A DNA stretch of 25,426 nt, taken from a virus (taxonomy: Duplodnaviria; Caudoviricetes). A program made the translations under genes and the position numbers. The notes under the pieces are model-generated. The model was given only the letters and a program-made list of their open reading frames with translations. It was not told the DNA's origin and ran no database searches. Positions 2,265-25,421 of the stretch are shown in pieces; positions within the stretch are counted from its first letter, which is position 1; each line of letters opens with the position of its first letter. Location: the IMG/VR virus record IMGVR_UViG_3300037511_000105, positions 1 through 25,426 of that record. One strand, written 5' to 3'.

Positions 2265-2265
2265 C

Positions 2266-2667: not shown

Positions 2668-2668
2668 C

Positions 2669-3121
2669 GTGCAGATGAAGCCGGAAATCAAGAAGAAGTG
2701 GCTGGCCGCGCTGCGGGGCGGCGACTTTATCCAGGGGCAGAACAGCCTGCGCAGCCGGAACGGTGCCACCGGCCAGTACGAGTACTGCTGCCTCGGGGTG
2801 CTGTGCGAGCTGGCCGTGCAGGACGGGGTCATCCCGGAGCCGACCCTGGAGGACGGCGACTGGATATACGGAAAGCGGGAGGGGGACCAGCAATCCTGGA
2901 GCAGCCTGCCGCACTCCGTGGCCGCCTGGGCGGGCATCGAGTTCGACGCCACCACGGCCCTGTTCGGGGCGGACATCAAGGTGGCGGAGCTGTACGAGGG
3001 CCGGGGCGACCCCACCCTGGCCGCCCTCAATGACGCAGTAGACATCGCCGAGGACGGCGAGACCTGTATCCGGCCCTACACCTTCGAGCGGATCGCAGAC
3101 ATCATCGAGGAGCAGTTGTGA
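2669..3121 (+). CDS. tandem paralog family member 4 (start may be ATG 2675)
   Basis: MKPEIKKKWLAALRGGDF...YCCLGVLCEL...LND...TFERIADIIE. Confidence 0.9.
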   Translation: MQMKPEIKKKWLAALRGGDFIQGQNSLRSRNGATGQYEYCCLGVLCELAVQDGVIPEPTLEDGDWIYGKREGDQQSWSSLPHSVAAWAGIEFDATTALFGADIKVAELYEGRGDPTLAALNDAVDIAEDGETCIRPYTFERIADIIEEQL

Positions 3122-3525
3122 TGAACCCGGAGATCAAGAAGAAGTGGGTCAAGGCCCTGCGGTCCAGGGACTACCAGCAGGGCACGCGTGCCCTGCACGT
3201 CAAGAGGGACGGCACCGAGACCTTCTGCTGCCTCGGCGTGCTGTGCGACCTGGCCGCCAAAGAGGGCGTCGCGGAGCCCTCCCCCGTGTCCACGGTGGCC
3301 GGGGTGACCACCGTGATGTACGACAAGCAGAGTGCCTTCCTCCCCAGGAGTGTCCAGGAGTGGTCGGAAATCCCCAGCAATAACGGGTACCTGTCGGATG
3401 AGCCCGATGTGGTGGTAGAAGGGGAGGACGGTGTGGGGAGCATCTCCTTCAACAGTCTGGTCGGCTTGAATGACGAAGGTGCCACCTTCGCCCAGATCGC
3501 TGACATCATCGAGAAGCACTTCTAA
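3118..3525 (+). CDS. tandem paralog family member 5 (start GTG 3118 or ATG 3121)
   Basis: MNPEIKKKWVKALRSRDY...FCCLGVLCDL...LNDEGATFAQIADIIE. Confidence 0.9.
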   Translation: MMNPEIKKKWVKALRSRDYQQGTRALHVKRDGTETFCCLGVLCDLAAKEGVAEPSPVSTVAGVTTVMYDKQSAFLPRSVQEWSEIPSNNGYLSDEPDVVVEGEDGVGSISFNSLVGLNDEGATFAQIADIIEKHF

Positions 3526-4131: not shown

Positions 4132-4320
4132 ATGTCTGAGGGTATAACGAGGGCTATGGCCGAAGGTATAACGAAGGCTATCCGGATATCCGACGACGTC
4201 ATCGCTGTGGTTTCGGTGGACCCGGCCGACTGGTACGAAGCCGTCGATGACGACGACTGGCTGACCTGCAAGCTGAAGTACATCCGAGCGCGGAAGGGGA
4301 AGCTGGATGGGTATTACTGA
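4132..4320 (+). CDS. hypothetical protein (62 aa) with an internal 8-aa duplication
   Basis: RBS GGGAG; EGITRAMA/EGITKAIR. Confidence 0.6.
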   Translation: MSEGITRAMAEGITKAIRISDDVIAVVSVDPADWYEAVDDDDWLTCKLKYIRARKGKLDGYY

Positions 4321-4495
4321 GCGAGTACGCGTCTGCTTCCCCTACCAGCACGAATACCGCGTGGTCGACCTCCAGAGCATCTGGCGATCCCAGGACGGGA
4401 ACTGGCTGATCACGGGTATTGACGTCGACAAGGGCGAGTACCGTAGTTTTCGCCTGGACCGGATACCGAAGAAGATACGGGTGGTAAAGGTATGA
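4307..4495 (+). CDS. stand-alone minimal WYL-domain protein
   Basis: YRVV ... NWLITGIDVDKGEYRSFRLDRI matches the WYL signature (wYl.a.d..r...R.FRlDRI). Confidence 0.7.
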   Translation: MGITERVRVCFPYQHEYRVVDLQSIWRSQDGNWLITGIDVDKGEYRSFRLDRIPKKIRVVKV

Positions 4496-9611: not shown

Positions 9612-10070
9612 ATGGCAGAGGAAAGCCCGGACTTAGAGCCCCGCCGACATTCCTTTCTACAGGAAGAGGCGCGGATGCTGGGCCCGATCTACCGCGCAGC
9701 GGAAGCACTCGGCCAGTCCTGGCGACGCCCATCCCTCTGCTCAGAGCTAGTCCGCGACGGCACCGTGCCCCCTGATATCTTCTTCGCGGAAGACGGCACG
9801 GACGCCTCCGAAACCGCCGCATCGATCTGCTTCGACTGCCCCGTACGGCAGCAGTGCTTGAAGTGGGCATGCTCGGCCAAACAGAGACATGGCATATGGG
9901 GCGGCCTACCCGCATCGGTTCGATTACAGCGGGTGGCCGCCCCCAGCCGTGGAAAACCCCACGACTACGCATCTCTGGTTACCCTGCCCAACCCGTACCT
10001 GACAGATGACGCGAGAAGCAGATTCCACCACAGCAACGTCACCGCATGGGAAGGACAGGAAGATGACTGA
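9612..10070 (+). CDS. whiB: WhiB-family Fe-S transcription factor
   Basis: W..PSLC...DIFF...ICFDCPVRQQC...HGIWGG: four Cys plus the G(V/I)WGG turn. Confidence 0.92.
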   Translation: MAEESPDLEPRRHSFLQEEARMLGPIYRAAEALGQSWRRPSLCSELVRDGTVPPDIFFAEDGTDASETAASICFDCPVRQQCLKWACSAKQRHGIWGGLPASVRLQRVAAPSRGKPHDYASLVTLPNPYLTDDARSRFHHSNVTAWEGQEDD

Positions 10071-11722: not shown

Positions 11723-11896
11723 ATGGAGAAAAACCCATTATGCATTGTGTGCGGGCAGGGATTTGCCGAATGGACTTACGTTGAATGCGATCCCTGCCGA
11801 GAATGGGCACACAGGGACTGCGGGGCCTACCTTAATTTTCCGGAGCACGGAGACCATGGATTTCGTTTCTTCTGCCAATTCTGCCTGGATGCGTGA
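11723..11896 (+). CDS. PHD-finger-like (C4HC3) zinc-finger microprotein, 57 aa (not in ORF track)
   Basis: MEKNPLCIVCGQGFAEWTYVECDPCREWAHRDCGAYLNFPEHGDHGFRFFCQFCLDA = C-x2-C-x11-C-x2-C-x4-H-x2-C-x17-C-x2-C. Confidence 0.75.
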   Translation: MEKNPLCIVCGQGFAEWTYVECDPCREWAHRDCGAYLNFPEHGDHGFRFFCQFCLDA

Positions 11897-12521
11897 GGCG
11901 GCATGCCGGGGTCTCCCCGAGGAGTACTTCTTCGAGCCTGAGCCGGAAGAGTTCAACGACACCCCGGCATTCAGCAAGGAGACCCACCGGCGTTTCGCCC
12001 AGGGGCGCAAGGTATGCAATAGCTGCCCGGTCCGCCCTCAGTGCCTGGACGAGAACATCCGCATGGAGTTCGGGCTGTACGGCGGGCTGTCGGTACGCCA
12101 GCGGGAACAGCTCATGCGCGACCTGGGTATGACTGAGCAGTCCAGGAAGACAGCCAACCACTCACTCACCCCCGCCTCGGTGCAGGTCGTCAGGGAGCTA
12201 CTGGCCGAAGGCCTCAGCTACACCCACATACACACCCAAACCGGGGTCAGCCGGGCCAGTATCTCCCGTATCGCCAACAACCCGGACTTCGGTCTCAAGC
12301 CGATGCCGTCTGCCAAGCCCGAGACCGACAGGCGGGTCCGAAGCAAGTCCGGAACCTTCGCCGAGGTCCCCACGCAGTCCTGGGCCGAGCCCAAGTACAA
12401 GGAGATACGGGACCTCCTACACGCGGGTGAAACGGCCAACCAGATAGCCCGGAAGACCGACGCCAGTGTCACTAAGGTGCGCCGCGTCCAGATCGCTATG
12501 GAACAGGCAGGAGTTCTGTAA
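11856..12521 (+). CDS. whiB: WhiB-family regulator fused to C-terminal HTH domain(s) (start 11856 or 11889)
   Basis: WMREAAC...YFF...VCNSCPVRPQC...FGLYGG; two HTH-like segments GLSYTHIHTQTGVSRASISRI and GETANQIARKTDASVTKVRRV. Confidence 0.88.
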   Translation: MDFVSSANSAWMREAACRGLPEEYFFEPEPEEFNDTPAFSKETHRRFAQGRKVCNSCPVRPQCLDENIRMEFGLYGGLSVRQREQLMRDLGMTEQSRKTANHSLTPASVQVVRELLAEGLSYTHIHTQTGVSRASISRIANNPDFGLKPMPSAKPETDRRVRSKSGTFAEVPTQSWAEPKYKEIRDLLHAGETANQIARKTDASVTKVRRVQIAMEQAGVL

Positions 12522-12909: not shown

Positions 12910-13205
12910 TGGACCGTAAGAAGAAGAAGATCGTCATCGCTGTCGTCGCTGCCCTCGCGGCGGGCGGGTTCCTCACCGCCGGTACTGGCTGCGATGCCAT
13001 TACAGAAGAGTGGAACGACGCCGAGATCGAGCACAAGTACGACCACCCGGCCGAGGTCTATTCCATGCCGGACGGCTACGCCAACTTCGCCGCCAAGTGC
13101 GACGTGCATGGCAACCGGGTCTACACGACCCGCTGGGGTGACTCAGGCCAGGGCAAGGCCCTCGCCGTGGTGCGGGACCCGAGCTGCGACAAGTGGAAGA
13201 AGTAG
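12909..13205 (+). CDS. putative lipoprotein
   Basis: MDRKKKK-hydrophobic stretch-TAGTG|C lipobox-like site; TAATG coupling. Confidence 0.75.
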   Translation: MDRKKKKIVIAVVAALAAGGFLTAGTGCDAITEEWNDAEIEHKYDHPAEVYSMPDGYANFAAKCDVHGNRVYTTRWGDSGQGKALAVVRDPSCDKWKK

Positions 13206-13209
13206 TAGC

Positions 13210-14601
13210 TTGTATGCGTTATCGGACTACCAGGTCGTAGCCCGTGATTTCCTTCTTGATCGACAAGTGGCTGGTCTCTTCGACGTGCCAGGCGTGGGTA
13301 AGACTCCACCTACGATTGTGGCGGCTGCTGAGAAGGTGGCGGAGACGGACCGACCCTCGCTGGTGACCGCCCCCGCCTACCTCTTGCCCAACTGGGAGGT
13401 TGAGATCTCCCGGTTCGCTCCGTTCGCCCGCGTACTGCGGGCGGACGGCGCCGGGCGCCGGGCGCGGTCCGCAGCCTTCGACGGAGACGCCGACTTCATC
13501 CTGACGTCGTACAACAACTGGTCGGCGCAGCACAAGGTGGGGGAGGACGACAAGGGGCCGATCTACGAGTTCAGCTACCCGCAGCTCGTTTCGAGGGGAT
13601 GGAGTTCGTGTGTCTTCGATGAGGGTCATCGATTACGCGGCCGGAACAGTAAGAGTACGCGGCAGGTGTTCCAACTGCGACGCCGATTATCGGCTAACGC
13701 AGAAACTCCCCTTTGGTGCCTTACGGGTACCCCTATCGTCAATAATCCGGGCGATCTCTTCCCTCTGCTCCACCTGTGGCGCCCCCGGGACTATCGATCT
13801 TACTGGAAGTTCGTCAACCGATACTGCGAAGTCGTAGAGACACCCTGGGCAAAGGAAGTAGGGAAGCTCCGTGCGGACATGGCTGTGGAATTTCGAGAAT
13901 TACTTGCTGAGTTCAGCCTCCGCAGAACTCTGGAAGACATTCCATTTCTGTCTGCTCTTGAGCATTCCAGTCGTGACTACATTGTCACTCTCCCCGCTTC
14001 TGTAAGGAAGATGTTTGGCCAAGCACGCAAAGAGTACATCTTGGACCACCCGGATCTCGCGGAGTCTGAGTTCGTTGATGGCGGTGGAGCGCTTTACTCC
14101 CGGCTCCGTCAGCTTGCGACTATACCTCCCACTAGCGCCAAGCCGAAGGTTGATTTTGTCCTGGACTTTCTCCAGGACCATTTCGGACCCCTGGTTGTTT
14201 ACACTTGGTACAAGTCTTCGGCTAGGGGAGTGGCAGAAGCCCTGTCCAAGACCAAGCGACCCGTAACCCTGATCACCGGGGACGTGCCGACCAATAAGCG
14301 CGCTGGGATGGTAGACAAATGGAAAAACGATGCCCAGGGTATTATCGTGGCCACCATATCCGCCTTGAAGGAAGGCATATCCCTCGTGAATGCTACGGAT
14401 GTTGTGTTCTTAGAGCACTCGCCGCTGCCCGCCGACCAGGAACAGTGCATCGCCCGGCTGAAGAGGCGGGGGCAAAATTCACTGGTCAATGTCCACAATG
14501 TCTTTGCCAACGGGACACCTGACACAGCTATCCGGCGTTCCCTGGAAGACCGAAACATCGGGCTCAAACGCGCCCTCACCGATTGGCTTATGGAGGACTG
14601 A
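13210..14601 (+). CDS. SNF2-family (SF2) helicase
   Basis: Q motif LSDYQ, DVPGVGKT, VFDEGH, LTGTP, KEGISL, QCIARLKRRGQ; likely start TTG 13210. Confidence 0.92.
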   Translation: MYALSDYQVVARDFLLDRQVAGLFDVPGVGKTPPTIVAAAEKVAETDRPSLVTAPAYLLPNWEVEISRFAPFARVLRADGAGRRARSAAFDGDADFILTSYNNWSAQHKVGEDDKGPIYEFSYPQLVSRGWSSCVFDEGHRLRGRNSKSTRQVFQLRRRLSANAETPLWCLTGTPIVNNPGDLFPLLHLWRPRDYRSYWKFVNRYCEVVETPWAKEVGKLRADMAVEFRELLAEFSLRRTLEDIPFLSALEHSSRDYIVTLPASVRKMFGQARKEYILDHPDLAESEFVDGGGALYSRLRQLATIPPTSAKPKVDFVLDFLQDHFGPLVVYTWYKSSARGVAEALSKTKRPVTLITGDVPTNKRAGMVDKWKNDAQGIIVATISALKEGISLVNATDVVFLEHSPLPADQEQCIARLKRRGQNSLVNVHNVFANGTPDTAIRRSLEDRNIGLKRALTDWLMED

Positions 14602-14602
14602 C

Positions 14603-14965
14603 ATGGCACTGCGAGACGACGCTGTACGGGCGTGCCAGACGGCGGGCGACCTTATGGAGGGCCGCCCCACGCTCGCCCAGCAGACCTACGAGCACGTGGC
14701 GCAGGGGACCAGTTGCTACTGCATCGTCGGTGCCCTCAGCCAGGTCATCGCCAGTAACCCTGCCGCTCTTGCGGAGAGCTGGCGCATTCCGGAGCCCCTT
14801 ATCGACACGATCGAGGCAGCCATAGGGCTGGTGCTGGAGGCCAACCCGGATATCCCCCGCGACCAGGTCGAGGACACCAGCGGCGCCGGGGTCCTGTTCG
14901 ACTGGAACGACCAACCCGAGCGCCAGATAGGTGAGGTCGTCCAGGTGCTCCGCAACGTGCGGTAG
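14603..14965 (+). CDS. DUF6197-like hypothetical protein
   Basis: RBS GGAGG; CYCIVGAL ... WNDQPER..GEVVQVL. Confidence 0.65.
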   Translation: MALRDDAVRACQTAGDLMEGRPTLAQQTYEHVAQGTSCYCIVGALSQVIASNPAALAESWRIPEPLIDTIEAAIGLVLEANPDIPRDQVEDTSGAGVLFDWNDQPERQIGEVVQVLRNVR

Positions 14966-15213
14966 TGCGCCGGTACGCGGTCACGCCGCGACAGCAGCTA
15001 CGCAAGCAGTTGTGGAGTAAGCAGCGTCACAGATGCCCACTGTGTAAGGCCCAGATCAGACGTCGTACGCTTTACACGGCCGAGGTCAACATCGACCATA
15101 TCCGCCCGAAAAGCCACGGCGGAACCGACCACAAGAGCAATCTGCAACTGGTACACAAAAGGTGTAACGAGTTGAAAGCAGACACCTGCAAGGGGTGCCC
15201 CGGATGTCCGTAA
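14965..15213 (+). CDS. HNH endonuclease
   Basis: CPLC ... IDHIRPKSHGG ... NLQLVHKRCNELK. Confidence 0.9.
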   Translation: MRRYAVTPRQQLRKQLWSKQRHRCPLCKAQIRRRTLYTAEVNIDHIRPKSHGGTDHKSNLQLVHKRCNELKADTCKGCPGCP

Positions 15214-15692
15214 GGCCGAGTTGGGATGAGCAAGGGCAAGCATTCGCGAAAGCGGCCTCTATCCGAGGTGACTGTACTCGCCGTAGTGTCGGCGCTGCGA
15301 TTCTTGATTCTGATCACCGTATCATCGGTGCTGGTTATAACGGCTCTTATCCTGGTGGCCCTAGTTGTCTAGAAGGGCAGTGCCCGCGAGGGCGGCACTA
15401 CGAGATCGAGCCCGAGCTGGCCCCCGGCCTGTGGCGTCGGCACGAATGTGCCTGCGGCGAGAACTGGCCCTGCCCCGACGCCGTCGCCCCCGGTTCGTCG
15501 TACGACACCGGACCCGGGGCGTGTGTCGCGGTCCACGCGGAAATCAACGCCATTCTCGACGTCTCAGATCGTCGTCGGCTGGTCAATTCCACGATGTTCA
15601 TCACCTGTGCCCCGTGTGACGGGTGCTTGAAGATCATCAAGAACACAACGATAAGTAGGGTCGTCTGGCCCGGAGGTGAATATGTCCGCTGA
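15204..15692 (+). CDS. dCMP deaminase
   Basis: RPSWD, CTRRSVGA, GYNG, HAEINA, PCDGC. Confidence 0.93.
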   Translation: MSVRPSWDEQGQAFAKAASIRGDCTRRSVGAAILDSDHRIIGAGYNGSYPGGPSCLEGQCPRGRHYEIEPELAPGLWRRHECACGENWPCPDAVAPGSSYDTGPGACVAVHAEINAILDVSDRRRLVNSTMFITCAPCDGCLKIIKNTTISRVVWPGGEYVR

Positions 15693-15831
15693 GCAGTTAA
15701 CCCGCGAAGAGCTGGAGTGGGTCGGGGAGATCGTCTGGCAGTACCGGGAGGACCGGGACTGGACACAGGGGGAATGGGCTGAGCTACAGACCATCCTGGA
15801 CAAGGTAGACAGCTTGCTGGAGAGGGAATGA
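15682..15831 (+). CDS. hypothetical protein (49 aa; not in ORF track)
   Basis: RBS GGAGGTG; MSAEQLTREELEW...; fills the gap between flanking genes. Confidence 0.7.
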   Translation: MSAEQLTREELEWVGEIVWQYREDRDWTQGEWAELQTILDKVDSLLERE

Positions 15832-15834
15832 AGT

Positions 15835-16983
15835 ATGGAGTACTTCTTATCCCACAGCGACGTCAGCACATTTAAGAGCTGCCGTCAGAAGTGGGACTAC
15901 AGCAGTGCTAACCGCCAGTCCCTGAGGCACAAGAAGACCCCCGCCCTCTACCTTACGGAGGGGAGCGGCTTTCATGAAGCAGTGGAGGCCGCCGCGTACG
16001 GGCGGGACCCCTTCGAGGCCTGCCGGGTGTACCTGGAAGCCGAGCGGGCCAAGGTCGAACAGGCCTTCAAAGAGGAGACGGGCAGCATGCCCTGGGCCTC
16101 GGAGATGGCCCCGTTCGATGAGTCGGCCGAGATGATCATGGCCGTGGTCAAGCAGTACTTCGACCACTACGGTATAGAGGACTCTCTGGCGGACCAGGGT
16201 CTGACATACCTCGCGGCGGAGATCCCGTTCAAGATCCATACACCCATCGTGGATCACTACGGGCTCACTCAGGACGTGTACTACGTCGGCACGTTCGACG
16301 GGATCGCGGAGGACGAGCACGGCGGGATCTGGGTGGTCGAGAACAAGACCTACAGTGCCCGCCCGGACGTGGAAGACCTCCAGTACCATTCCCAGATCAA
16401 CGGCTATGCCGTGGCGTTCGAGATGCTTACCGGCATACCGCTCACGGGCTCCCTGTACAACGGGGTGGCCAAGCAGTTGATCAAGTACCCCAAAGTCCTG
16501 ACCAATGGTCTGGTGTCAGTGGACCAGCGCCAGTTGGTGACCCTCCAGAGCTATCTGACAGGGTTGCAGCAGGCAGGGCAGGACCCCTTCGACCCTAGGT
16601 ACACCGAGATCCTGGCGTACCTCCAGGAGAGGGAGCGACAGGGGGATTCGCGGTTCTTCCACCGCGAGAAGGTCTATTTCAAACGCCCTCAGATCGAGTC
16701 CTGGTTCACGGACTTCGAGAAGGTGGCGTATGAGATGATCTCAGATCCCAGTATCTACCGGACAGTTCCCTACAACGGTTGTGGACCTCGGGGCCAGGCC
16801 TGCTGGTTCAGGGATCTGTGCCATACCCAGTATGACGGTGGGGATGTCCAAAGTGTCCTGGATACCCGGTATATGACGGGTACTTACGGAACAATGCTGG
16901 CTATGCAAACGGAACCAACTATGGTATCCTCTGTCAGCGAACTCAAAGAGCTGCTACAGGAGCTGAAGAATGCCGGAGAGTAA
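15835..16983 (+). CDS. Cas4/RecB-like PD-(D/E)XK exonuclease
   Basis: SHS..STFKSCRQKW, GSGFHE, GTFDG, VVENKT, QINGY, C-terminal C-x6-C-x5-C Fe-S ligands. Confidence 0.88.
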   Translation: MEYFLSHSDVSTFKSCRQKWDYSSANRQSLRHKKTPALYLTEGSGFHEAVEAAAYGRDPFEACRVYLEAERAKVEQAFKEETGSMPWASEMAPFDESAEMIMAVVKQYFDHYGIEDSLADQGLTYLAAEIPFKIHTPIVDHYGLTQDVYYVGTFDGIAEDEHGGIWVVENKTYSARPDVEDLQYHSQINGYAVAFEMLTGIPLTGSLYNGVAKQLIKYPKVLTNGLVSVDQRQLVTLQSYLTGLQQAGQDPFDPRYTEILAYLQERERQGDSRFFHREKVYFKRPQIESWFTDFEKVAYEMISDPSIYRTVPYNGCGPRGQACWFRDLCHTQYDGGDVQSVLDTRYMTGTYGTMLAMQTEPTMVSSVSELKELLQELKNAGE

Positions 16984-17239
16984 GAAGCAGTACTTCGTCC
17001 AGGTGGGACGTCACCCGGAGCCGAGCGAAGAAGAGATGTACGGCAACATGGGGTCGGAGTACATGGCACCCACCAGCGAATGGGATCCGGTTGCCAACAT
17101 CCTCTGGGACCGCACCGGCAGGCTGACCGAGAGCTTCTACGAGGCCGAGGCGCACGCGATTATCGCGGCCAAGACGTACAAGAACGTCCGTATCGCCGAG
17201 AGCGAGATATCGGTCGTCTCCTACGTGGGTGGTGAGTAA
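16970..17239 (+). CDS. hypothetical protein (89 aa)
   Basis: RBS AGGAG; high GC3. Confidence 0.75.
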   Translation: MPESKKQYFVQVGRHPEPSEEEMYGNMGSEYMAPTSEWDPVANILWDRTGRLTESFYEAEAHAIIAAKTYKNVRIAESEISVVSYVGGE

Positions 17240-18004
17240 TTGGCCGTCTTAGGTAGCAAAGGTGGCTTACCCGAGTTCCGCAAAGCGTCCGACTTCGCTG
17301 GGCGTAAAGGCCTCAACATGGTCTTGTTCGGGCCGCCCGGGGTGGGTAAAACGACGCTGGCGTGTACCGCCCAGGACTCCGAATTCGGCTCCGACGTCCT
17401 TCTATTCGATATCGAGGGAGGCGTCGAGTCCGTCACCGACCGAGACGATGTGGCAGTTTGGCCCAATCTTGAGGATCTACCGGGCCTCACCTGGAACGAG
17501 TTCCGGAAGATCGTGGATCAGCTCATCGCGGTCGGCAAGGACTCACCGTACAAAACACTGGTATTCGACTCGCTGTCCGCGATCTACTACGACCTCATCA
17601 TCCCCAAGGTCGTGGGTAACCGGGAGAAGCAGCCGCAGCAGAACCAGTGGGGTGAGTGCAACCGGATCCTGGTCAAGTTCATCTCCGACGTGATGGTGCT
17701 CAATGCCTACGGCATCAACACCATCTTCATCGGCCACGTGAAGGAGGAACAGGACGGCGATGTCATCAACATTCGTCTCGCTGGAACTCCGCAGGGCCGC
17801 GATGAAGTCCTCCGGGTGGTTGGGAACGTCGGGCACCTCGGTTGGGACCGGAAGCTGGAGAATCGAATTCTCTCCTTCAAGGTTCAGCGTCGAATCGAGG
17901 GGCCCAAGTTCCGGCAGCCGACCACGGGGGATCAGATGCCCCTAGAGATCACCAATCCCAAAATGCATGATGTGCTCAAGTACGCCCGTAAGGTGAAGAG
18001 TTGA
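17240..18004 (+). CDS. AAA_24 / Sak4-like recombination ATPase
   Basis: GPPGVGKTT, LFDIEGG, TLVFDSLS, IFIGH; lies between the exonuclease and the SSB. Confidence 0.85.
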   Translation: MAVLGSKGGLPEFRKASDFAGRKGLNMVLFGPPGVGKTTLACTAQDSEFGSDVLLFDIEGGVESVTDRDDVAVWPNLEDLPGLTWNEFRKIVDQLIAVGKDSPYKTLVFDSLSAIYYDLIIPKVVGNREKQPQQNQWGECNRILVKFISDVMVLNAYGINTIFIGHVKEEQDGDVINIRLAGTPQGRDEVLRVVGNVGHLGWDRKLENRILSFKVQRRIEGPKFRQPTTGDQMPLEITNPKMHDVLKYARKVKS

Positions 18005-18354
18005 TGCATAGCAGCCTGAACATCACAGCCCTCGTGAGCCCCGAGGTGGCCGCAGTAGAGGTCCACGGGGTGGACGTGCGGGGCCTCTACGAGGACGACA
18101 TGAAGGGTACCGGCTGGTCCAAGCGGCACCCCGAGGATCTCCCTAACGAAGAACTCGCCTTCAACCTCGCCATGGCCCGAGCCCTCCAGGATCTGGCCAA
18201 CGAGTACGCACGCAAGGCCGCCGACCTCGCCGGGTTCCCGGTCGTGGTCGACCTGACCGGCGTGGCGGGCGACGACGGCCTTGAGGCCGCTGTCGTCCAT
18301 TACCCCGCCCCCATCGCCAACACCAACACCGTCGAAGAGAAGGTTGCATACTGA
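18004..18354 (+). CDS. DUF1876 (Rv2632c-like, dsRBD-fold) protein
   Basis: GTGWSKRHPED...ELAFNLAMARALQDLA matches the family pattern G.G.ArrhP.D....iG.elA.aRAL.dLa. Confidence 0.7.
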   Translation: MHSSLNITALVSPEVAAVEVHGVDVRGLYEDDMKGTGWSKRHPEDLPNEELAFNLAMARALQDLANEYARKAADLAGFPVVVDLTGVAGDDGLEAAVVHYPAPIANTNTVEEKVAY

Positions 18355-18804
18355 ATGGGCATCACGCGAATTGACTTCGGGTCCGTCGAGTTAAAGGAGC
18401 GCAAGGCCTTCAAGGCGTTAGCCGACGACTCGAAGGTGCGCGCGGTAGCGAAGTCGTTCAAGTACGACAAGGCGAACACCGGCACCCCGTACATCGAGGT
18501 CAAGTACGAGATCGATGACGAGGACGCCGTGGACATCGACGGCGGGACCGACTACGGGTCCCTCTGGGACAAGATCTACTTCTCCGAGAAGTCGGTCAAG
18601 ATGGCCAAGCTCAAGCTCAAGGGCCTCGGCGTGGATGTCGATGCACTGGTCATCGAGGACGAGGACGACCTGAGGGACCTGGTGGAGCACCTCAGGGACG
18701 ACTTCACCGATCAGGAAGTCGTTCTGATTACGGAGAACGAACCGTCCTTCAAGGACGAGACCGTGATGGTGACTCGCGTGAAGTTCATCAACCAGGTCAC
18801 CTGA
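18355..18804 (+). CDS. putative ssDNA-binding protein (DUF669-like)
   Basis: GTPYIEVKYEI...LWDKIYFSEK pattern; acidic; typical position after Sak4. Confidence 0.65.
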   Translation: MGITRIDFGSVELKERKAFKALADDSKVRAVAKSFKYDKANTGTPYIEVKYEIDDEDAVDIDGGTDYGSLWDKIYFSEKSVKMAKLKLKGLGVDVDALVIEDEDDLRDLVEHLRDDFTDQEVVLITENEPSFKDETVMVTRVKFINQVT

Positions 18805-18816
18805 AGTTGATCTTGT

Positions 18817-18850
18817 AGGGCCCGGCCGTCCTGATAGCGGCCGGGCCCTT
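18817..18850 (+). terminator. GC-rich hairpin after the SSB gene
   Basis: Perfect 12-bp inverted repeat AGGGCCCGGCCG / CGGCCGGGCCCT, 9-nt loop. Confidence 0.65.
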
Positions 18851-18864
18851 CGGGAAGGACCCTC

Positions 18865-19284
18865 ATGAGAATCTGGGCATTTGACCCGGGGTCAGTTGCT
18901 ACCGGGGTAGCCCGAACCCACCAGCGGTCGGCCTTCTGGGACGCGTTCCAGGTGGCCGATGAACTGGACGTCAAAGAGTACTTCTGGTTGTACGAGCATG
19001 ACCAAGATGACGTGTTCCTGATCGAGATGTACCGCAGCGGCGGGTATCTCAACAAACATGCACAACGAACTATCGAAGTGATCGGGGGGCTCAAGATGCT
19101 GATCCGCTCCCACACAGGCATCGATCCTGTGATGGTCACTGAGCAGGCCAGGCTCTCGGGCCAACGCGAGGCCGCTGCACTGATAGGCGACGACATTGAC
19201 GTCCTACGGACGGATCCTGAGCGTAAGGACGCATTCAGTGCCCTGTCGCACGCGTGCGCATACCGTAGAAGGATAAATGGCTGA
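18865..19284 (+). CDS. RuvC-like Holliday junction resolvase
   Basis: IWAFDPG..TGVA, FLIE, EVIGGLK, KDA; RNase H-fold acidic residues. Confidence 0.75.
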   Translation: MRIWAFDPGSVATGVARTHQRSAFWDAFQVADELDVKEYFWLYEHDQDDVFLIEMYRSGGYLNKHAQRTIEVIGGLKMLIRSHTGIDPVMVTEQARLSGQREAAALIGDDIDVLRTDPERKDAFSALSHACAYRRRING

Positions 19285-19468
19285 GCAGCAGAGGAAAGAG
19301 AAGCAGGCGTCCGCGCCTCAGGAGGAGGTCGAAGAGGTTGAAGCTAAAGACCTTTCGAACGAAGCTCTGGCTGATGATGTGGAAGATCTCCTCGCGGATA
19401 TAGACGATCTGCTGGAGGAGAATGCCGAGGAGTTCGTGAGCAACTACAAGCAGCGAGGTGGGCAGTGA
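19277..19468 (+). CDS. pup: prokaryotic ubiquitin-like protein Pup
   Basis: 63 aa; disordered N-terminus; C-terminal half DDVEDLLADIDDLLEENAEEFVSNYKQRGGQ closely follows the Pup consensus (D.lLDEIDdvLEeNAEdFV..yvQKGG[QE]); RBS GAAGGA. Confidence 0.93.
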   Translation: MAEQQRKEKQASAPQEEVEEVEAKDLSNEALADDVEDLLADIDDLLEENAEEFVSNYKQRGGQ

Positions 19469-20019
19469 CTCACGCCGCCACGGAGAGCCACTACAAGGGC
19501 CGGTTAGCCGAAGTCAAGGTGCTGGGCCAGTTCGCTGCCTGGGGGTGTGAGGTCGCCCCCGTGCTGGGGGAGAACACCTCGTGCGACCTGCTGGCCCTCA
19601 GGGCTGGCAACCCCTGTGCCTACCGGGTAGAGGTCAAGGCCGCGAGTTTCCGGGGTAAGAGCCGGTGGCCGGTAGCCACCATCGGCGGCGGCGGCGGGAG
19701 CAGCGGGGGCAACCGCAAGCACACCCCTATCGACACCGACCGCTTCGACATCCTCGCGGTGTACTGCGAGGAATGGGATCTGGTGTTCGCTTGGTGGGCT
19801 TCCCAGATCGATGTAAAACACTCCTGGACCTTGACCCGGGAGCGGCAGGCAGCAGCAATCACGGACGGGGCTGAGTTAGACCTTGTGGAAGTCGCAGTTA
19901 TGGAAGAACGGGAAGTGGGAGGACTATGCCTCTGCGGCGTCTGTGGAGCTATGCACTCTGATGCTCGCCCCTCTCTTGCAGACTCGGCCGACCATTCGCT
20001 GGCAGATAGTGGAATGTGA
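19465..20019 (+). CDS. PD-(D/E)XK endonuclease (group I intron-associated / PDDEXK_5-like), probably a free-standing homing nuclease
   Basis: KGRLAE, CDLL, RVEVK, FDILAVY. Confidence 0.75.
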   Translation: MTHAATESHYKGRLAEVKVLGQFAAWGCEVAPVLGENTSCDLLALRAGNPCAYRVEVKAASFRGKSRWPVATIGGGGGSSGGNRKHTPIDTDRFDILAVYCEEWDLVFAWWASQIDVKHSWTLTRERQAAAITDGAELDLVEVAVMEEREVGGLCLCGVCGAMHSDARPSLADSADHSLADSGM

Positions 20020-20606
20020 TGAGCGCCCCAAGCCTAAAGTACTCCCTTACTCTTGACCGTGCCGACTTCGAGGACGCCGACCGGTTAGTCCGGGCCGTTC
20101 TGTTCCAGGGCAAACCCGAGACGCCGCTGCGGCCGAGAAAGGTCACGGACGTCGCTGAGCATCTCCGCAAGGACGATCAGCGGTACATCGCCAAGGAACT
20201 GGCCAAAGGCGGGTTGGACGGGCTCTGCTACAACTCCAGCAGCACGTCGAAGACGTTCACGGTATGGATCAATCCGAATCTGGACCCGTACACCGACCTG
20301 TACCGTACGACCCTGTTACACGAACTGGTCCACGGATACCTTCGGGAGTACCGGCACGGCCGGAAATTCCGCCAGGCCATCGGCCGGGTCCTGTACCACT
20401 ACTGCGACATCGTCAGCCCGTTGCAGGACCCCGGAGCCGTCATCAAGACGTACGGACTCTTCTACTCCCGCCGGGGCTCCCAGGAGTCGTCTGCGGAATA
20501 CCTGCTGCGCCTCCAGCGAGAGGGGGAAGAGATCCGGGACACCGCCGAGAACGAGTACAGCGACATCCTCGAAAGCTACCTGGTCCTAGGAGGGACCTGG
20601 CCCTAG
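20016..20606 (+). CDS. SprT-like zinc metalloprotease
   Basis: GLC ... TLLHELVH-x6-HGRKF (HExxH...HG..F). Confidence 0.75.
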   Translation: MMSAPSLKYSLTLDRADFEDADRLVRAVLFQGKPETPLRPRKVTDVAEHLRKDDQRYIAKELAKGGLDGLCYNSSSTSKTFTVWINPNLDPYTDLYRTTLLHELVHGYLREYRHGRKFRQAIGRVLYHYCDIVSPLQDPGAVIKTYGLFYSRRGSQESSAEYLLRLQREGEEIRDTAENEYSDILESYLVLGGTWP

Positions 20607-20619
20607 GAGGGACCTCAGC

Positions 20620-20709
20620 ATGATCACAGACATCATCCTCCGCGTCGTGTCCTGGCTGCACGAACGCCTCTGCCCCTGCACCGTCACCTTCGGTGAGGAC
20701 GAGGACTGA
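20620..20709 (+). CDS. small hypothetical protein (29 aa; not in ORF track)
   Basis: RBS AGGAGG; MITDIILRVVSWLHERLCPCTVTFGEDED. Confidence 0.55.
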   Translation: MITDIILRVVSWLHERLCPCTVTFGEDED

Positions 20710-20711
20710 CA

Positions 20712-20939
20712 ATGCCCAAGGTCTGGTTAGCGTACGACGCGCCCGGTGACGAATGGGAAGTCGTTGCCGGGGAGCGCCCCGAGTGGGCCGAGTGGGCGGT
20801 CGAGGTGGAGATGAACAACTCGCTCTACCGGCAGATCAAGGCCGCCATGAAGAACTACTACAAGTTCCAGGACCACCTTGCCCGCTGGGCGGAAGAGGTC
20901 GGGTCCGGCCAGCGAAAGAGGATCAGCAATGGCGGATGA
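20712..20939 (+). CDS. hypothetical protein (75 aa)
   Basis: RBS GAGG; high GC3. Confidence 0.75.
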   Translation: MPKVWLAYDAPGDEWEVVAGERPEWAEWAVEVEMNNSLYRQIKAAMKNYYKFQDHLARWAEEVGSGQRKRISNGG

Positions 20940-21654
20940 CGCCCCGGTCAAGCTCAAGTCGGATGTGGACGTCGAGTTAATCGACTGGATGGGGGACGAT
21001 GTCAGCATCGTCCAGGCGGCCCGGGTCTCCACGTTGGGCTGGGACAACGGCGACCCCGACAATGGCAACGGCAAGGTTGCAGGTCTCATCAACTTCCTCA
21101 TGAGGGATCGTCATGGAACCCCCTTTGAGCATAACTCTTTCACGTTTCGAATCTCTGCCCCTCTGTTTGTGTTCTACGAATTCCATCGACACCGTATTGG
21201 CTGGAGTTATAACGAGGAATCAGCCCGTTATCGTGAGCTGGAGCCTGTGTTCTACGTGCCAGGCGCTGAGCGGGCTCTCCGTCAGATCGGCAAGCCCGGG
21301 GCGTACACCTTCGAACCCGGCGACTACAAGCAGCAGGCCCTGACCCGTGGCTCACACCTCCGGGCCGCCAGGGAGTCCTGGAGCGAGTACCTGTGGATGC
21401 TGGACCATGGCATTGCTCGGGAGGTTGCGCGCAACGTCCTTCCGGTGTCGGTGTATAAAACGATGTACGCTACATGCAATCTTCGGAGTCTGTTCTCCTT
21501 CCTCTCACTTCGCTGGGCGCATCCACTGTCCACCGTTCCCACATTCCCGCTTGCGGAAATACAAATGGTGGCTGAAAAACTGGATGCGCAGGCACGGCCC
21601 ATCTTCCCGCTGGCTTTCGAAGCATTCGACAAGAACGGACGAGTAGCACCATGA
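20929..21654 (+). CDS. thyX: flavin-dependent thymidylate synthase ThyX
   Basis: AARVS, HGTPFEH, RHRIGWSYNEESARY, AREVARNVLP, NLRSL; start ATG 20929. Confidence 0.95.
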   Translation: MADDAPVKLKSDVDVELIDWMGDDVSIVQAARVSTLGWDNGDPDNGNGKVAGLINFLMRDRHGTPFEHNSFTFRISAPLFVFYEFHRHRIGWSYNEESARYRELEPVFYVPGAERALRQIGKPGAYTFEPGDYKQQALTRGSHLRAARESWSEYLWMLDHGIAREVARNVLPVSVYKTMYATCNLRSLFSFLSLRWAHPLSTVPTFPLAEIQMVAEKLDAQARPIFPLAFEAFDKNGRVAP

Positions 21655-21827
21655 GTGACGACGAGTACACCTGGGAGCAGCACGTACAGGAGTGCCTGGA
21701 GTCCCTGATAGCGGACCTGGACTACGACCTGTTCAAAGCCCTCAAGCGGGGTGAGGAGACCGGGGAGGACCACTTCCCCAGGATCACTCAGGGCTTCCTG
21801 GAGGCCCTCCGACACTTCGATAAGTAG
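21651..21827 (+). CDS. hypothetical acidic protein (58 aa; not in ORF track)
   Basis: ATGA overlap; MSDDEYTWEQHVQEC...; high GC3. Confidence 0.7.
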   Translation: MSDDEYTWEQHVQECLESLIADLDYDLFKALKRGEETGEDHFPRITQGFLEALRHFDK

Positions 21828-21832
21828 GGGCT

Positions 21833-22066
21833 ATGGCAGCCGTACCTGAGATGACAATCCCGATCCGCTTCCTCACCACGGTCGAGTTTGAGCCTGAGAA
21901 CTTGGCCTGGGAAGTCTGGAAGCAGTCCGAGGCCACGGACCAGATCTTCGACTTCATCATGACCCTGGACCAGTTCGTGGCCGACTACGACTTCACCGTC
22001 CGGCTAAGGGACGCCCTGACCGAGGCCCTACGAGTGGAAGACGAGGCCACCAGTGGCGATGTCTGA
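21833..22066 (+). CDS. hypothetical protein (77 aa)
   Basis: Fills the gap in the operon; high GC3. Confidence 0.7.
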   Translation: MAAVPEMTIPIRFLTTVEFEPENLAWEVWKQSEATDQIFDFIMTLDQFVADYDFTVRLRDALTEALRVEDEATSGDV

Positions 22067-22568
22067 AGTCACCTGCTCGCACGAGTCCTGGGACTGTACT
22101 AACGCTTATTCGTGGCACCACTGCAACGACTGCGATTTCCGGTGGTCCTCGGACAGCACCTTCGGCCAGGCTTACCAACTCGGCAAATGTAACGTCTGTA
22201 ACCAGGGCCCGGAGTCGGAGTCGATGTTCGTTACCAAGGACAGCGGTGAGCGCGAAGAGTACGACTCCGGGATGGTCCGGGATACCCAAGAGGGGAAACC
22301 ACGATTCGACCTGCTCCTGCCTCTCGGAGTGCCTTACTCGGATCAGTTCCTCACTCGGGTCGCTGGTCTCCTCGCTCGCGGAGCTAGCAAGTACAGTGAG
22401 CGAAACTGGGAACTCGCTGAAGGCCCTGGGGAGTTGGCTCGCTTCAAATCCTCCGCGCTCCGACATCTGATGCAGTGGCTGAACGACGAGAGTGACGAAG
22501 ATCACGCAGCCGCTGTGGTCTTCAATCTGCTGGCCTACGAAACAATCAAGTGGAAGATGAGCCCATGA
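22059..22568 (+). CDS. DUF5664-like dATP/dGTP diphosphohydrolase domain protein with a Cys/His-rich N-terminal extension
   Basis: KDSGER..YDSGMVRD..EGKPRFDLL, GASKYSERNW, SALRH, DEDHAAAVVFN. Confidence 0.8.
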   Translation: MSEVTCSHESWDCTNAYSWHHCNDCDFRWSSDSTFGQAYQLGKCNVCNQGPESESMFVTKDSGEREEYDSGMVRDTQEGKPRFDLLLPLGVPYSDQFLTRVAGLLARGASKYSERNWELAEGPGELARFKSSALRHLMQWLNDESDEDHAAAVVFNLLAYETIKWKMSP

Positions 22569-22801
22569 GATACTCGATCACCGTCCGGGAGAAGTGGAAC
22601 ACCACCGGGACGTGGAGCCAGTACAACACGTCCAAGTGGGAGTGGGAGTTGTACGACGACGACGAGCAGCTCCTGGACCAGGGCACACGGGACACCGAGT
22701 CCCAGGCCCGCAAGGCGGCCGAGCTGGCAGCCGACCTGGACTACAAGATCAAGAACTCTGCGTACCACACCTACACCTACAGCCCCCCGTCGGCGTCATG
22801 A
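22565..22801 (+). CDS. hypothetical protein (78 aa)
   Basis: ATGA overlaps at both ends. Confidence 0.75.
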   Translation: MRYSITVREKWNTTGTWSQYNTSKWEWELYDDDEQLLDQGTRDTESQARKAAELAADLDYKIKNSAYHTYTYSPPSAS

Positions 22802-22935
22802 GCTGGCTCCTGTGGCTCCGTCAGGAGGTCTGGTACCACCGGCACATGCGGTGTCACACCGCAATCGAGTGGAGTTCTGACCTGAGCCAGTTCGCCATCA
22901 GGTGCACCCCTCACGGAAGCGTATGCCCGTCGTGA
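22798..22935 (+). CDS. small Cys/His protein (45 aa)
   Basis: ATGA overlap; MSWLLWLRQEVWYHRHMRCH...RCTPH. Confidence 0.5.
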   Translation: MSWLLWLRQEVWYHRHMRCHTAIEWSSDLSQFAIRCTPHGSVCPS

Positions 22936-25421
22936 AGAAGATCGCGCTAGTCGACTACGGCGACACCCGCATCTCCAACAAGGCGTTGGAGATCGTGGAG
23001 GCCGTATTCGAAGAAACAGGCTGGACCGACGAAGTCCTCTATTACCACCTGGACAAGCGGACTCAGCTCCTGGAGCTGAAGGGCCATGACCTCATCGTCT
23101 CGATGGGTGCTGAGGCCCTGGAACCGCTGTGCAACACGTCCAGGCCGCTCAAGAAGTACGCCGGATCGCTGACGTACAACCCAGGTCTACGGACCTGGGT
23201 TCTGCCGACTCAGCACCCCAACTGCATCTACCAGGGGAAGTACAACCTCTTCGATGATATTTACGATCACCTTCGACGTGCCGTTTCCCTCTGCCGAGGC
23301 ACCCTTTCGTTTCCACCTGTCGGTGGACACAAGCTCGATTGGGAAATGGTCGGACATAACGGCAGGCGCGGCACGTATCCAGGTGACGCAAAAGTCTTCG
23401 ACGGATACTTTGACGCTACTCGTGACGAAGTTGACCGACAGGCTGAAGTCCTGGGGGACTGGCTCACCCGGCTAGACAGCGGTGAGAAGTGCACGTTCGG
23501 GGCTGACACCGAGTCCTTCACGACCGACCACTTCCGCCCGCTTACCATGATCCAGATCTACGACCCGGGTATGCGTAAGGCGTTTGCCTTCAACTGGGGC
23601 GTCATCGAGTGGGCCAAGGATCTGTGGGTACGCTTCTTCCAGCACCCCAATGCCACGTTCATCTGGCACAACATCAAGCACGACGCCAAGATGATCTACC
23701 ACTGGCTAGGGTTCTGGCCGCTTGGTGAGAACCACGACGACACCCTTGCCTGGGCCCTGGGCCTCACGGAGAAGGGCAACCAGACGGGCTTGAAGTACCT
23801 GTCCCGGCAGTACTGCGGAGCCCCGTACTACGAAGAAGGCCTGGATGAGTGGCTGGATAAAAGCGACATCAACTACGGACACATCCGGCCGGATGTACTC
23901 GCTGAGTATGGGTGCCTGGACGTTTTCTATACGTACCAACTCAGCGGTGTGCTACCTCAGTTGGTGGACGCAGAAGGGACGACGTCCCTTGTTCGCAACA
24001 TACTACTTCCGGCGCAGCGAACCTTCGCCCAAGTAGAGTACGCCGGGATCCGGATCGACCAGGAGTACGCGCAGAGCCTCGCGGCCGACTGGACCCCGCT
24101 CATCAACGAGGCAATCCAACAGGTCCAGGAGTACGCCAAGGAGGTCGGCTTCCCCGCCGACCCCGAGATGACGGCTGGTCAGATCGAACGCCGGATCTGC
24201 CCCTGTGTACCGGTCAGCCTGTGGGGCGAGCTGTCTGGTCTCTCGGTGGCCGGGTACCGCAAGTACCTCCGTGAGACGCACGGCCTGGATGACGCCTGTA
24301 CGAAGTGCAACAAGCGCCGCTACCTCCGCGTCGTGGACAACACCCTGAACGTCCACTCCACCAAGCAGATGCACCACCTGTGCTTCGACATGCTGGGTAT
24401 GGAGCAGACCTGGGAGGGGCGGAAGACCAACAAGTACTTCTGGGAGATCAACCAGAACCATGAGTTCGCGCAGTTGGTTAAGAGCTACCGCGAGTTGGAT
24501 TACCTTAACCGTAATATCGTGCAAGGTTTTGGCCGCTTTGTCCGAGAGGACGGACGGGTTCACCCGTCCATTGCACTCTGGGGAACCGTCACCGGCCGAC
24601 TCGCTGTCCGAGACCCCGCCATGCAGACGGTGCCCAAGCACTCCGCCAACGCCAAGCACATCCGCCGGATGTTCCTGCCCGATCCTGGTGATCTTGTAGT
24701 CGACATCGACTACTCCAACCTTGAGATGTACATGGCTGCACACCTGACTGGGGATCAAAACCTGGTCAAGGCCCTGGACCAGGACATCCACCGTACGACC
24801 GCAGCAGCGATGTACATGAAGGCGTACGAGGAAGTCCTGGCCGAGGAGCGGCAGTCGGCCAAGCCGGTCAACTTCGGTGCGGGCTACAACATCAAGGCCA
24901 AGAAGCTGTCCAGGGACAAGAACCTCGTCAAGATCACCGAGGGTGAGGCCAGCAAGGCGCAGGAGTTCCTGGACGCCTTCTGGAACGAGTACTGGCAGTG
25001 GGACATCGCCCGCAAGGAGTGGATCGAAGAGGCCACGCAGAACTGTGAGTTGAGGACCGAGCTGGGGCGTAAGCGCCGCTGGTCCTTGATCACCAAGGAC
25101 AACCTGTGGAAGGTGGAGAACCAGGCCTGCAACTTCAAGGGCCAGTCCCTCGCCTCGGACCTGTGTCTGACGTCACTCATTGCCCTACATTCCCTGCTGA
25201 CTGCCAAGGAATGGGGGCGAGTTATGATCTCGGTCCACGACTCGATCGTCTTCTCAATCCACCCGGAGAACATCCACGAAGCCATCCCCTTCATCAAGAA
25301 GATCATGACCACGCCGATGTTCGAGACCGATATTCAGTTCAAGGTAGACGTCACCGTGGGGCCCAACTACGGGGACCAGGAATCCTACGACCCGGAGAAG
25401 GACTACGTGAAGGCGGCATGA
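22923..25421 (+). CDS. polA: family A DNA polymerase with 3'-5' exonuclease and a degenerate N-terminal UDG-like domain
   Basis: Exo I ADTE, Exo II HNIKHD, Exo III YGCLD; TVTGRL; motif A DIDYSNLE; motif B RQSAKPVNFG..Y; motif C VHDS. Confidence 0.95.
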   Translation: MPVVKKIALVDYGDTRISNKALEIVEAVFEETGWTDEVLYYHLDKRTQLLELKGHDLIVSMGAEALEPLCNTSRPLKKYAGSLTYNPGLRTWVLPTQHPNCIYQGKYNLFDDIYDHLRRAVSLCRGTLSFPPVGGHKLDWEMVGHNGRRGTYPGDAKVFDGYFDATRDEVDRQAEVLGDWLTRLDSGEKCTFGADTESFTTDHFRPLTMIQIYDPGMRKAFAFNWGVIEWAKDLWVRFFQHPNATFIWHNIKHDAKMIYHWLGFWPLGENHDDTLAWALGLTEKGNQTGLKYLSRQYCGAPYYEEGLDEWLDKSDINYGHIRPDVLAEYGCLDVFYTYQLSGVLPQLVDAEGTTSLVRNILLPAQRTFAQVEYAGIRIDQEYAQSLAADWTPLINEAIQQVQEYAKEVGFPADPEMTAGQIERRICPCVPVSLWGELSGLSVAGYRKYLRETHGLDDACTKCNKRRYLRVVDNTLNVHSTKQMHHLCFDMLGMEQTWEGRKTNKYFWEINQNHEFAQLVKSYRELDYLNRNIVQGFGRFVREDGRVHPSIALWGTVTGRLAVRDPAMQTVPKHSANAKHIRRMFLPDPGDLVVDIDYSNLEMYMAAHLTGDQNLVKALDQDIHRTTAAAMYMKAYEEVLAEERQSAKPVNFGAGYNIKAKKLSRDKNLVKITEGEASKAQEFLDAFWNEYWQWDIARKEWIEEATQNCELRTELGRKRRWSLITKDNLWKVENQACNFKGQSLASDLCLTSLIALHSLLTAKEWGRVMISVHDSIVFSIHPENIHEAIPFIKKIMTTPMFETDIQFKVDVTVGPNYGDQESYDPEKDYVKAA

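What the first reader, a model, noticed from the sequence alone, without database searches (positions are those of the whole stretch)
19277..19468. Phage-encoded Pup (prokaryotic ubiquitin-like protein) without ligase or proteasome genes nearby
Seen: an intact 63-aa Pup with the conserved C-terminal helix region and a GGQ end, translationally coupled inside the replication operon. No pafA, dop, mpa/arc or prcAB lies in the window. The tail reads YKQRGGQ rather than the usual (Y/F)VQKGG(Q/E). Established: Pup-GGQ must be deamidated by Dop, is ligated to lysines by PafA and is read by Mpa/ARC; in bacteria pup sits in the proteasome locus. Inference: the phage feeds its own tag into host pupylation. 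It could boost or redirect degradation (defence proteins, amino-acid recycling) or act as a decoy that jams Dop, PafA or Mpa. This is the best candidate here for an undescribed system; I cannot confirm novelty without a search.
Basis: partly seen in the sequence, partly recalled or inferred. Interest (0 to 1): 0.88.

Follow-up and report, generated by a model that had tools for sequence, protein, structure and literature searches.

The report
Phage carries its own degradation tag
An uncultured phage carries an intact copy of Pup, the small tag that actinobacteria attach to proteins to send them for destruction, with no attaching or reading enzymes found on its contig, so it likely feeds its own tag into the host's tagging machinery, an idea that could be tested with a related tag gene in a phage already in culture.

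Summary
Confirmed. 19277-19468 encodes a 63-aa Pup (Pfam and TIGR03687 above cut-off) in the replication module of a probable actinobacterial phage. It is not chimeric: related phages have pup in the same module and it is under purifying selection. It is accessory: 2 of 3 relatives found through ThyX lack it there. No PafA/Dop in this contig or in 50 of 50 Pup-bearing viral records; 2 of 50 carry an ARC ATPase. All 44 viral Pups end in GG[Q/E] and keep full length, but differ from host Pups: Lys61 kept in 30/44 vs 151/153, and a DLxNxxL motif in 9/44 vs 0/150. Best reading (0.5, untested): a tag donor used by host Dop/PafA/ARC; rivals are decoy (0.25) and shield (0.13). Cultured Streptomyces phage Dagobah has an annotated Pup that its paper's main text never mentions. 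Ten literature searches showed no report. This scan has noted phage Pups before on other DNA. New variant of a known kind.

The parts
19277..19468 (+). pup gene, 63-aa prokaryotic ubiquitin-like protein ending GGQ
   Evidence: purifying selection
19277..19336 (+). N-terminal 20 residues, low-confidence and likely disordered; the part that threads into the Mpa/ARC pore in the host system
   Evidence: pLDDT 58-59; role from PMC8755798 passages, inferred for this protein
19349..19369 (+). DLSNEAL (DLxNxxL) motif, start of the predicted long helix, in the segment that binds ARC but not Dop/PafA
   Evidence: motif in 9 of 44 viral and 0 of 150 host Pups; helix 28-59 predicted; function inferred
19385..19465 (+). 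C-terminal 27 residues: Dop/PafA-binding segment with Arg at position 61, Lys at 59, Ser at 56 (M. tuberculosis numbering) and terminal GGQ
   Evidence: binding segment from PMC8599861 passages
18865..19284 (+). upstream gene, RuvC/YqgF-like nuclease by recalled motif (only a weak YqgF match, E 0.42); overlaps the pup start
   Evidence: no Pfam or PHROG hit
19465..20019 (+). downstream PD-(D/E)XK endonuclease, not matched in the related loci
   Evidence: PF11645
20016..20606 (+). SprT-like metalloprotease gene, a core gene of the module, present with or without pup
   Evidence: weak, E 0.0038; relative E 3.4e-7
12994..25421 (+). replication/recombination module that hosts pup (SNF2 helicase, HNH, dCMP deaminase, exonuclease, Sak4-like, ThyX, dGTPase-like, PolA)
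   Evidence: synteny

Best explanation
The gene is an intact phage copy of Pup that likely acts as a tag donor: the host's Dop would turn its final glutamine into glutamate, the host's PafA would attach it to lysines, and the host's ARC/Mpa would unfold the tagged proteins, so the phage would raise protein turnover during its replication phase. Shown: family membership, purifying selection, accessory status, absence of ligase in the viral records searched. From papers: free Pup is scarce, the pathway's genes are not induced, and the ATPase-proteasome is indiscriminate, so added tag supply is a plausible lever. Inferred: expression with the replication genes, conjugation, reading by ARC, and the benefit (amino-acid supply, or clearing host proteins such as DNA-repair enzymes). 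Arg61 would stop the tag being spent on Pup~Pup at that site.
For: 44 of 44 distinct viral Pups end in GG[Q/E]-stop, 20 Q and 24 E, as hosts do; Q and E alternate inside this phage's own clade (11 Q, 7 E of 18). All 44 keep 57-80 residues, including the N-terminal part that only ARC uses (PMC8755798), whereas the Dop-bound crystal fragment is the last 28 residues. Residues 21-36 are as conserved as the enzyme-binding end in the clade (0.81 vs 0.74; partly circular, see below). pN 0.24-0.39 vs pS 0.62-0.84 against 7 relatives. K61R Pup pupylates PanB as efficiently as wild type and loses di-Pup (PMC4783102 passages). Free Pup is unstable and rarely seen (PMC5358908); core genes are not induced under known conditions (PMC12288473); pupylated substrates outcompete free Pup at Mpa (PMC6476560), which weakens a free-decoy role there. 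Two T4-like records carry pup plus a full ARC, ending GQYL in the one read, which points to driving degradation rather than blocking it in those phages.
Against: No binding, conjugation or expression data. A competitive inhibitor of Dop or PafA would also keep GG[Q/E]. Viral Pups have drifted at positions that hosts hold: basic residue at 56 in 22/44 vs 148/150, Glu42 in 24/44 vs 148/150 (the host count at 42 is partly set by the search pattern); this protein differs at 41, 42, 56, 59 and 61. More tagging would also hit phage proteins, and no significant lysine depletion was seen in pup-bearing relatives (p 0.27). The gene is dispensable in close relatives and was found in 1 named cultured phage among 50,697 records. 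The host is unknown, and Pup was found in only 147 of 301 sampled genomes of the phylum. Conservation of the 21-36 motif is inflated because some searches used it as the seed.
Confidence: 0.5

Rival explanations
1. Competitive decoy: abundant free phage Pup would occupy host Dop, PafA or ARC and blunt host pupylation of phage proteins, i.e. a counter-defence.
For: Free Pup binds Dop more tightly than conjugates do and binds Mpa at about 3 uM (PMC6476560 passages). Phage-specific changes fall in the ARC-binding helix: DLxNxxL motif 9/44 vs 0/150, and 9 of 44 viral Pups are 74-80 aa long, mostly with what looks like a repeated helix segment, vs 1 of 150 hosts, which could mean tighter binding. 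Mycobacterium phage proteomes are enriched in lysine deserts, read as possible pressure from pupylation (PMC13696103).
Against: No viral Pup of 44 has a non-ligatable end. Pupylated substrates outcompete free Pup at Mpa. Blocking Dop would reduce tag removal and so push the same way as the donor model. No anti-phage role of pupylation appeared in the searches.
Confidence: 0.25
2. Shield tag: phage Pup would be ligated by PafA but read poorly by ARC (or removed poorly), so proteins carrying it escape degradation and host Pup is crowded out.
For: The ARC-only segment is remodelled: no basic residue at 26-33 here, mean 0.93 in viral vs 1.57 in host Pups; Asp41/Glu42 are Ala/Asp here.
Against: 25 of 150 host Pups also have no basic residue there, and net charge of 21-51 is the same (-10.3 vs -10.4). 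Leu32, Leu39, Leu40, Ile43, Leu47 and Asn50 are kept. The threader N-terminus is kept in all 44.
Confidence: 0.13
3. Neutral passenger, or an acidic protein reused for something unrelated (e.g. nucleic-acid mimicry in the replication module).
For: Very acidic (20 D/E vs 6 K/R); absent from the module in 2 of 3 relatives found independently.
Against: Purifying selection across saturated synonymous distances; GG[Q/E] kept in 44 of 44; present beside replication, packaging and lysis genes alike.
Confidence: 0.07

Closest known systems
Cellular Pup of Actinomycetota (PF05639, TIGR03687; M. tuberculosis Pup, PDB 7px9, 3m91, 3m9d)
   Same: Length, low-confidence N-terminus, one long predicted helix, conserved hydrophobic pattern, GG[Q/E] end; 19 of last 27 residues identical.
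   Different: On a phage, alone, outside the arc-dop-pup-prcBA-pafA locus; best identity to a host Pup found is 57%; Arg61, Lys59, Ser56; DLxNxxL motif absent from 150 host Pups.
Pup of Streptomyces phage Dagobah (MT711977.1, QMP84414.1)
   Same: Stand-alone phage Pup, no PafA/Dop or ARC in the complete genome, non-Lys at 61 (Val).
   Different: 78 aa with a longer helix, ends GGE, lies between endolysin and primase genes of an unrelated phage; only an annotation, not mentioned in the main text of its paper.
T4-like phages with pup plus ARC ATPase (G006, G046)
   Same: Viral Pup with Arg61 and no ligase or proteasome in the fragments.
   Different: They also encode an ARC over the TIGR03689 cut-off, about 11 kb away; records are 13-15% complete.
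Bacterial ubiquitin-like anti-phage conjugation (CBASS Cap2, Bil/Bub systems; recalled, not checked here)
   Same: Protein-on-protein tagging in phage-host conflict.
   Different: Those are host-encoded, E1/E2-based and use a beta-grasp or cGAS modifier; here the phage supplies an unrelated, disordered tag.

Membership tests
Pup (PF05639 / TIGR03687) | Profile score above the curated cut-offs | tested here: met
   52.6 vs 27 bits; 47.6 vs 41.45 bits
Pup (PF05639 / TIGR03687) | C-terminal GG[Q/E] directly before the stop | tested here: met
Pup (PF05639 / TIGR03687) | Disordered N-terminus and helix-forming C-terminal half | tested here: met
   prediction only: pLDDT 58-59 for residues 1-20, helix 28-59 at 84-92
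Pup (PF05639 / TIGR03687) | Conserved Lys61 of the QKGG[Q/E] motif | tested here: not met
   Arg here; Lys in 151 of 153 host Pups. Not needed for ligation to PanB (PMC4783102), so it does not bar membership
Pup (PF05639 / TIGR03687) | Deamidated by Dop, ligated by PafA, bound by ARC/Mpa | not testable with these tools
Pup-proteasome system locus | pup encoded with dop, pafA, arc and often prcBA | tested here: not met
   none in G000 (40% complete); PafA/Dop in 0 of 11 viral records at least 90% complete; none in complete Dagobah

The most novel reading that the evidence does not exclude
Phages fight over the Pup-proteasome system: they have captured Pup (some also the ARC motor) and evolved it into a remodelled 'super-tag' with a capped or lengthened ARC-binding helix and no Lys61, which outcompetes host Pup and takes control of host protein degradation. 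This would be a viral hijack of bacterial ubiquitin-like tagging and would imply that pupylation matters in phage infection.
Probability: 0.3. Interest if true: 0.9.

Novelty: new variant of a known kind. Interest (0 to 1): 0.72.

Why it matters
Viruses of eukaryotes routinely manipulate ubiquitin (general knowledge); no counterpart for pupylation appeared in the searches. [quoted passage not shown] A selected, phage-remodelled Pup is direct genetic evidence that phages engage this pathway, and phage Dagobah on Streptomyces coelicolor, for which a pup deletion strain exists (PMC11356632), makes the question testable in a harmless host. Natural Pup variants could also map which residues Dop, PafA and ARC really need.

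Tried and rejected
Chimeric assembly or host fragment: rejected (synteny in L004, L054, L055; bridging contigs). SprT-like protease as Pup partner: rejected, it is present in the two pup-less relatives and far from pup in L002. A conserved partner gene: none among 121 neighbours of viral pup genes by all-against-all BLAST, other than within phage families (103 of them scanned against PHROGs). One versus several captures from hosts: unresolved; viral Pups look scattered in a quick tree, but one viral clade is not rejected (p-AU 0.54, 34 viral and 45 host rows). Lysine content of shared genes in pup-bearing vs pup-less relatives: 5.5% vs 6.2-6.3%, p 0.27, inconclusive. Expression: no RNA holder listed. 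Promoter/terminator scan: nothing above shuffles. Complex prediction with the ARC coiled coil: tool not available, nothing folded. Direct tblastn of this protein against cultured phages found nothing, although a host-like Pup found Dagobah, so that search is insensitive. Sak4 scan of viral contigs found no relatives. Terminase profile as a test of viral origin was uninformative, it missed true phages too. MT835496.1, an unverified 'bacteriophage' scaffold with arc-dop-pup-pafA, was left out of the viral counts as a likely bacterial fragment (tRNA-synthetase hit nearby); if it were viral it would be a counter-example.

Full report
OBSERVATION. Window 19277-19468 (+) encodes MAEQ...YKQRGGQ-stop, 63 aa. 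It passes the curated cut-offs of Pfam PF05639 (52.6 vs 27 bits) and TIGR03687 (47.6 vs 41.45), has no PHROG family, and matches solved Pup chains (7px9_G E 2.7e-8; 19 of the last 27 residues identical by my count from the printed alignment). A fold from an 11-sequence alignment gives a low-confidence N-terminus and one helix, residues 28-59. The start overlaps the upstream ORF by 8 nt and the stop overlaps the next start. Positions below use M. tuberculosis numbering (window residue + 1).

CONTEXT. The window is a whole virus record, linear, about 40% complete. Neighbours are SNF2 helicase, HNH, dCMP deaminase, exonuclease, Sak4-like, a RuvC/YqgF-like gene (label from a recalled motif; best PDB match E 0.42), a PD-(D/E)XK nuclease, an SprT-like protease, ThyX and PolA, plus two WhiB genes. 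The nearest large relative, G004 (98.6 kb, 85% complete), has portal, capsid, tail tube, WhiB and a transglycosylase-like lysin (94 proteins scanned, of G004 and G046). An actinobacterial host is inferred from these genes; it is not identified. No close cultured relative: best PolA matches cover at most 73% at about 27% identity.

IS IT REAL? L004 and L054 have the order RuvC-like, pup, SprT, ThyX; L055 has pup, SprT, ThyX; L002 and L056 carry pup near the helicase/HNH/dCMP deaminase genes of the same module. Against 7 relatives pN is 0.24-0.39 and pS 0.62-0.84. One contig in each of two soil runs spans the gene with no joint (both may be the source data). An independent search with ThyX gave 38 loci, of which 3 share the module: one is G004, and the other two (L241, L243) have no pup in it; a Pfam search found Pup in 0 of 33 of those records (37 given, 4 not held; L241 and L243 are 23% and 57% complete). 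So pup is selected but accessory.

HOW COMMON, AND WITH WHAT? Two scans of IMG/VR gave 52 Pup loci. PafA/Dop: 0 of 50 records searched (2 loci left out), 0 of 11 at least 90% complete; control C. glutamicum positive. Proteasome: 0 of 50. ARC over the cut-off: 2 of 50, G006 and G046; G046 has T4-type capsid, UvsY, pup, UvsW in a row and its ARC ends in GQYL. Among 50,697 annotated phage records a host-like Pup query found 2: Streptomyces phage Dagobah, annotated 'ubiquitin-like protein Pup', complete, without PafA/Dop or ARC, and an unverified scaffold with the full bacterial locus, which I left out as a likely bacterial fragment. Neighbours of viral pup genes vary (replication, packaging, lysis) with no shared partner beyond single phage families.

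VIRAL VERSUS HOST PUP. I compared 44 distinct viral Pups (IMG/VR loci, 4 metagenome contigs of which L053 is not shown to be viral, Dagobah, the window; one truncated locus and duplicates dropped) with 150 host Pups that have a pathway gene beside them. These came from 80 genome loci ranked by likeness to the query (the scan covered 14 of 64 parts) and 90 of 150 matches of a phylum sample, the 30 best and 60 of the weakest; three whose start was unresolved were added for position 61 only. That sample found Pup in 147 of 301 genomes, a tally that includes 11 unpublished genomes; no sequence of those was used. All 44 viral Pups end GG[Q/E] (20 Q, 24 E) and are 57-80 aa. Lys61: 30 of 44 vs 151 of 153 (Fisher p 1e-8; 27 of 39 vs 28 of 28 after thinning the first host set to 80% identity, p 0.0008; p 0.043 at 70%; relatedness is not fully corrected). 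Basic residue at 56: 22 of 44 vs 148 of 150. DLxNxxL at 26-32: 9 of 44 vs 0 of 150; it marks the start of the predicted helix and resembles a helix cap (recalled motif). Nine of 44 are 74-80 aa, against 1 of 150 hosts. The window's Pup falls in a group of 27 rows with no host member among 78 (SH-aLRT 93, quick tree, 66 columns; 10 rows have unknown context), best host identity 57%. One or several captures cannot be told (p-AU 0.54).

MECHANISM. From papers: Pup-Gln is deamidated by Dop, ligated by PafA and read by Mpa/ARC; core genes are not induced under known conditions (PMC12288473, parts 1-2 of 4 read). Residues 21-51 bind the Mpa coiled coil and the N-terminus threads the pore (PMC8755798, passages). 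Dop and PafA bind two short C-terminal helices (PMC8599861, passages). Free Pup is unstable and rarely seen (PMC5358908, passages). Mpa-proteasome is indiscriminate, pupylated substrates outcompete free Pup, and free Pup binds Dop more tightly than conjugates (PMC6476560, passages). K61R Pup still pupylates PanB but forms no di-Pup (PMC4783102, passages). RecA and other DNA-damage proteins are pupylated and cleared (PMC8223512, passages). PafA selects by a structural motif (PMC10465538, abstract). Together: the phage protein keeps every part needed for the full cycle, in a pathway where the tag is scarce, so I commit to a tag donor that raises host protein turnover (0.5). A decoy (0.25) and a ligated-but-unread shield (0.13) are not excluded, since the phage-specific changes fall on the ARC helix and the enzyme-binding end. 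Against the donor model: no data on expression or binding, no significant lysine avoidance in pup-bearing relatives (p 0.27), and dispensability.

NOVELTY. Ten searches of the held library (listings only, except the papers named) showed no report of a phage-encoded Pup; 'Pup-like' with 'phage' and 'actinobacteriophage' with 'proteasome' and 'Pup' gave 0 papers. The 2025 review has no occurrence of phage, virus or viral; PMC3511204 has none of phage (passages); the Dagobah paper's main text has none of ubiquitin, Pup, pupylation or proteasome (PMC7650747, passages; its supplements were not read and may list the gene). The 2026 review treats phage adaptation to this pathway as untested (PMC13696103, passages). 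Subscription journals are largely outside the library. Six earlier notes of this scan describe phage Pups on other DNA; they are unchecked and are not counted as support. Verdict: a member of the Pup family in a new setting with phage-specific changes; new variant of a known kind; interest 0.72, mainly because Dagobah and an existing S. coelicolor pup deletion strain (PMC11356632, passages) make the open question testable.

Noticed in passing
G046 (L057:6540-6716 pup; L058:4823-6424 ARC) and G006: T4-like phages encode both Pup (between UvsY and UvsW) and a full ARC/Mpa ATPase over the TIGR03689 cut-off; the G046 copy ends in the GQYL docking motif; no ligase or proteasome in the fragments.
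   Followed up: partly
proteins P0026 and P0027: Proteins with a signal-peptide-like start and 2-3 Pup repeats (Pfam), in P0026 separated by KR sites, resembling a eukaryotic secreted precursor; source unnamed, contigs 1-2 kb.
   Followed up: partly
L196, L231, L238: Host pup genes in pathway loci whose frame runs on past GG[Q/E] into a 15-35 residue hydrophobic tail; a processed or membrane-anchored form is possible.
   Followed up: no
L060:7878-8114 (Dagobah); L001, L003, L018, L023, L034, L004, L030: Longer viral Pups (74-80 aa) with an apparently repeated acidic helix segment.
   Followed up: partly
window 1543-3525: Tandem array of paralogous small genes, four matching phrog_18067 of unknown function, and a fifth similar ORF at 1543-1905.
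   Followed up: no
window 9612-10070 and 11745-12521; 4307-4495: Two WhiB-family genes and a tiny stand-alone WYL-domain gene; WYL domains also occur in PafBC of the pupylation locus.
   Followed up: no
MT835496.1 (L061): A record filed as bacteriophage carries arc, dop, pup and pafA in bacterial order and a tRNA-synthetase hit; likely a bacterial fragment.
   Followed up: partly
L178:11325-17908 (G004): The related phage carries a cluster of glycosyltransferase, UDP-sugar dehydrogenase, epimerase and methyltransferase genes.
   Followed up: no
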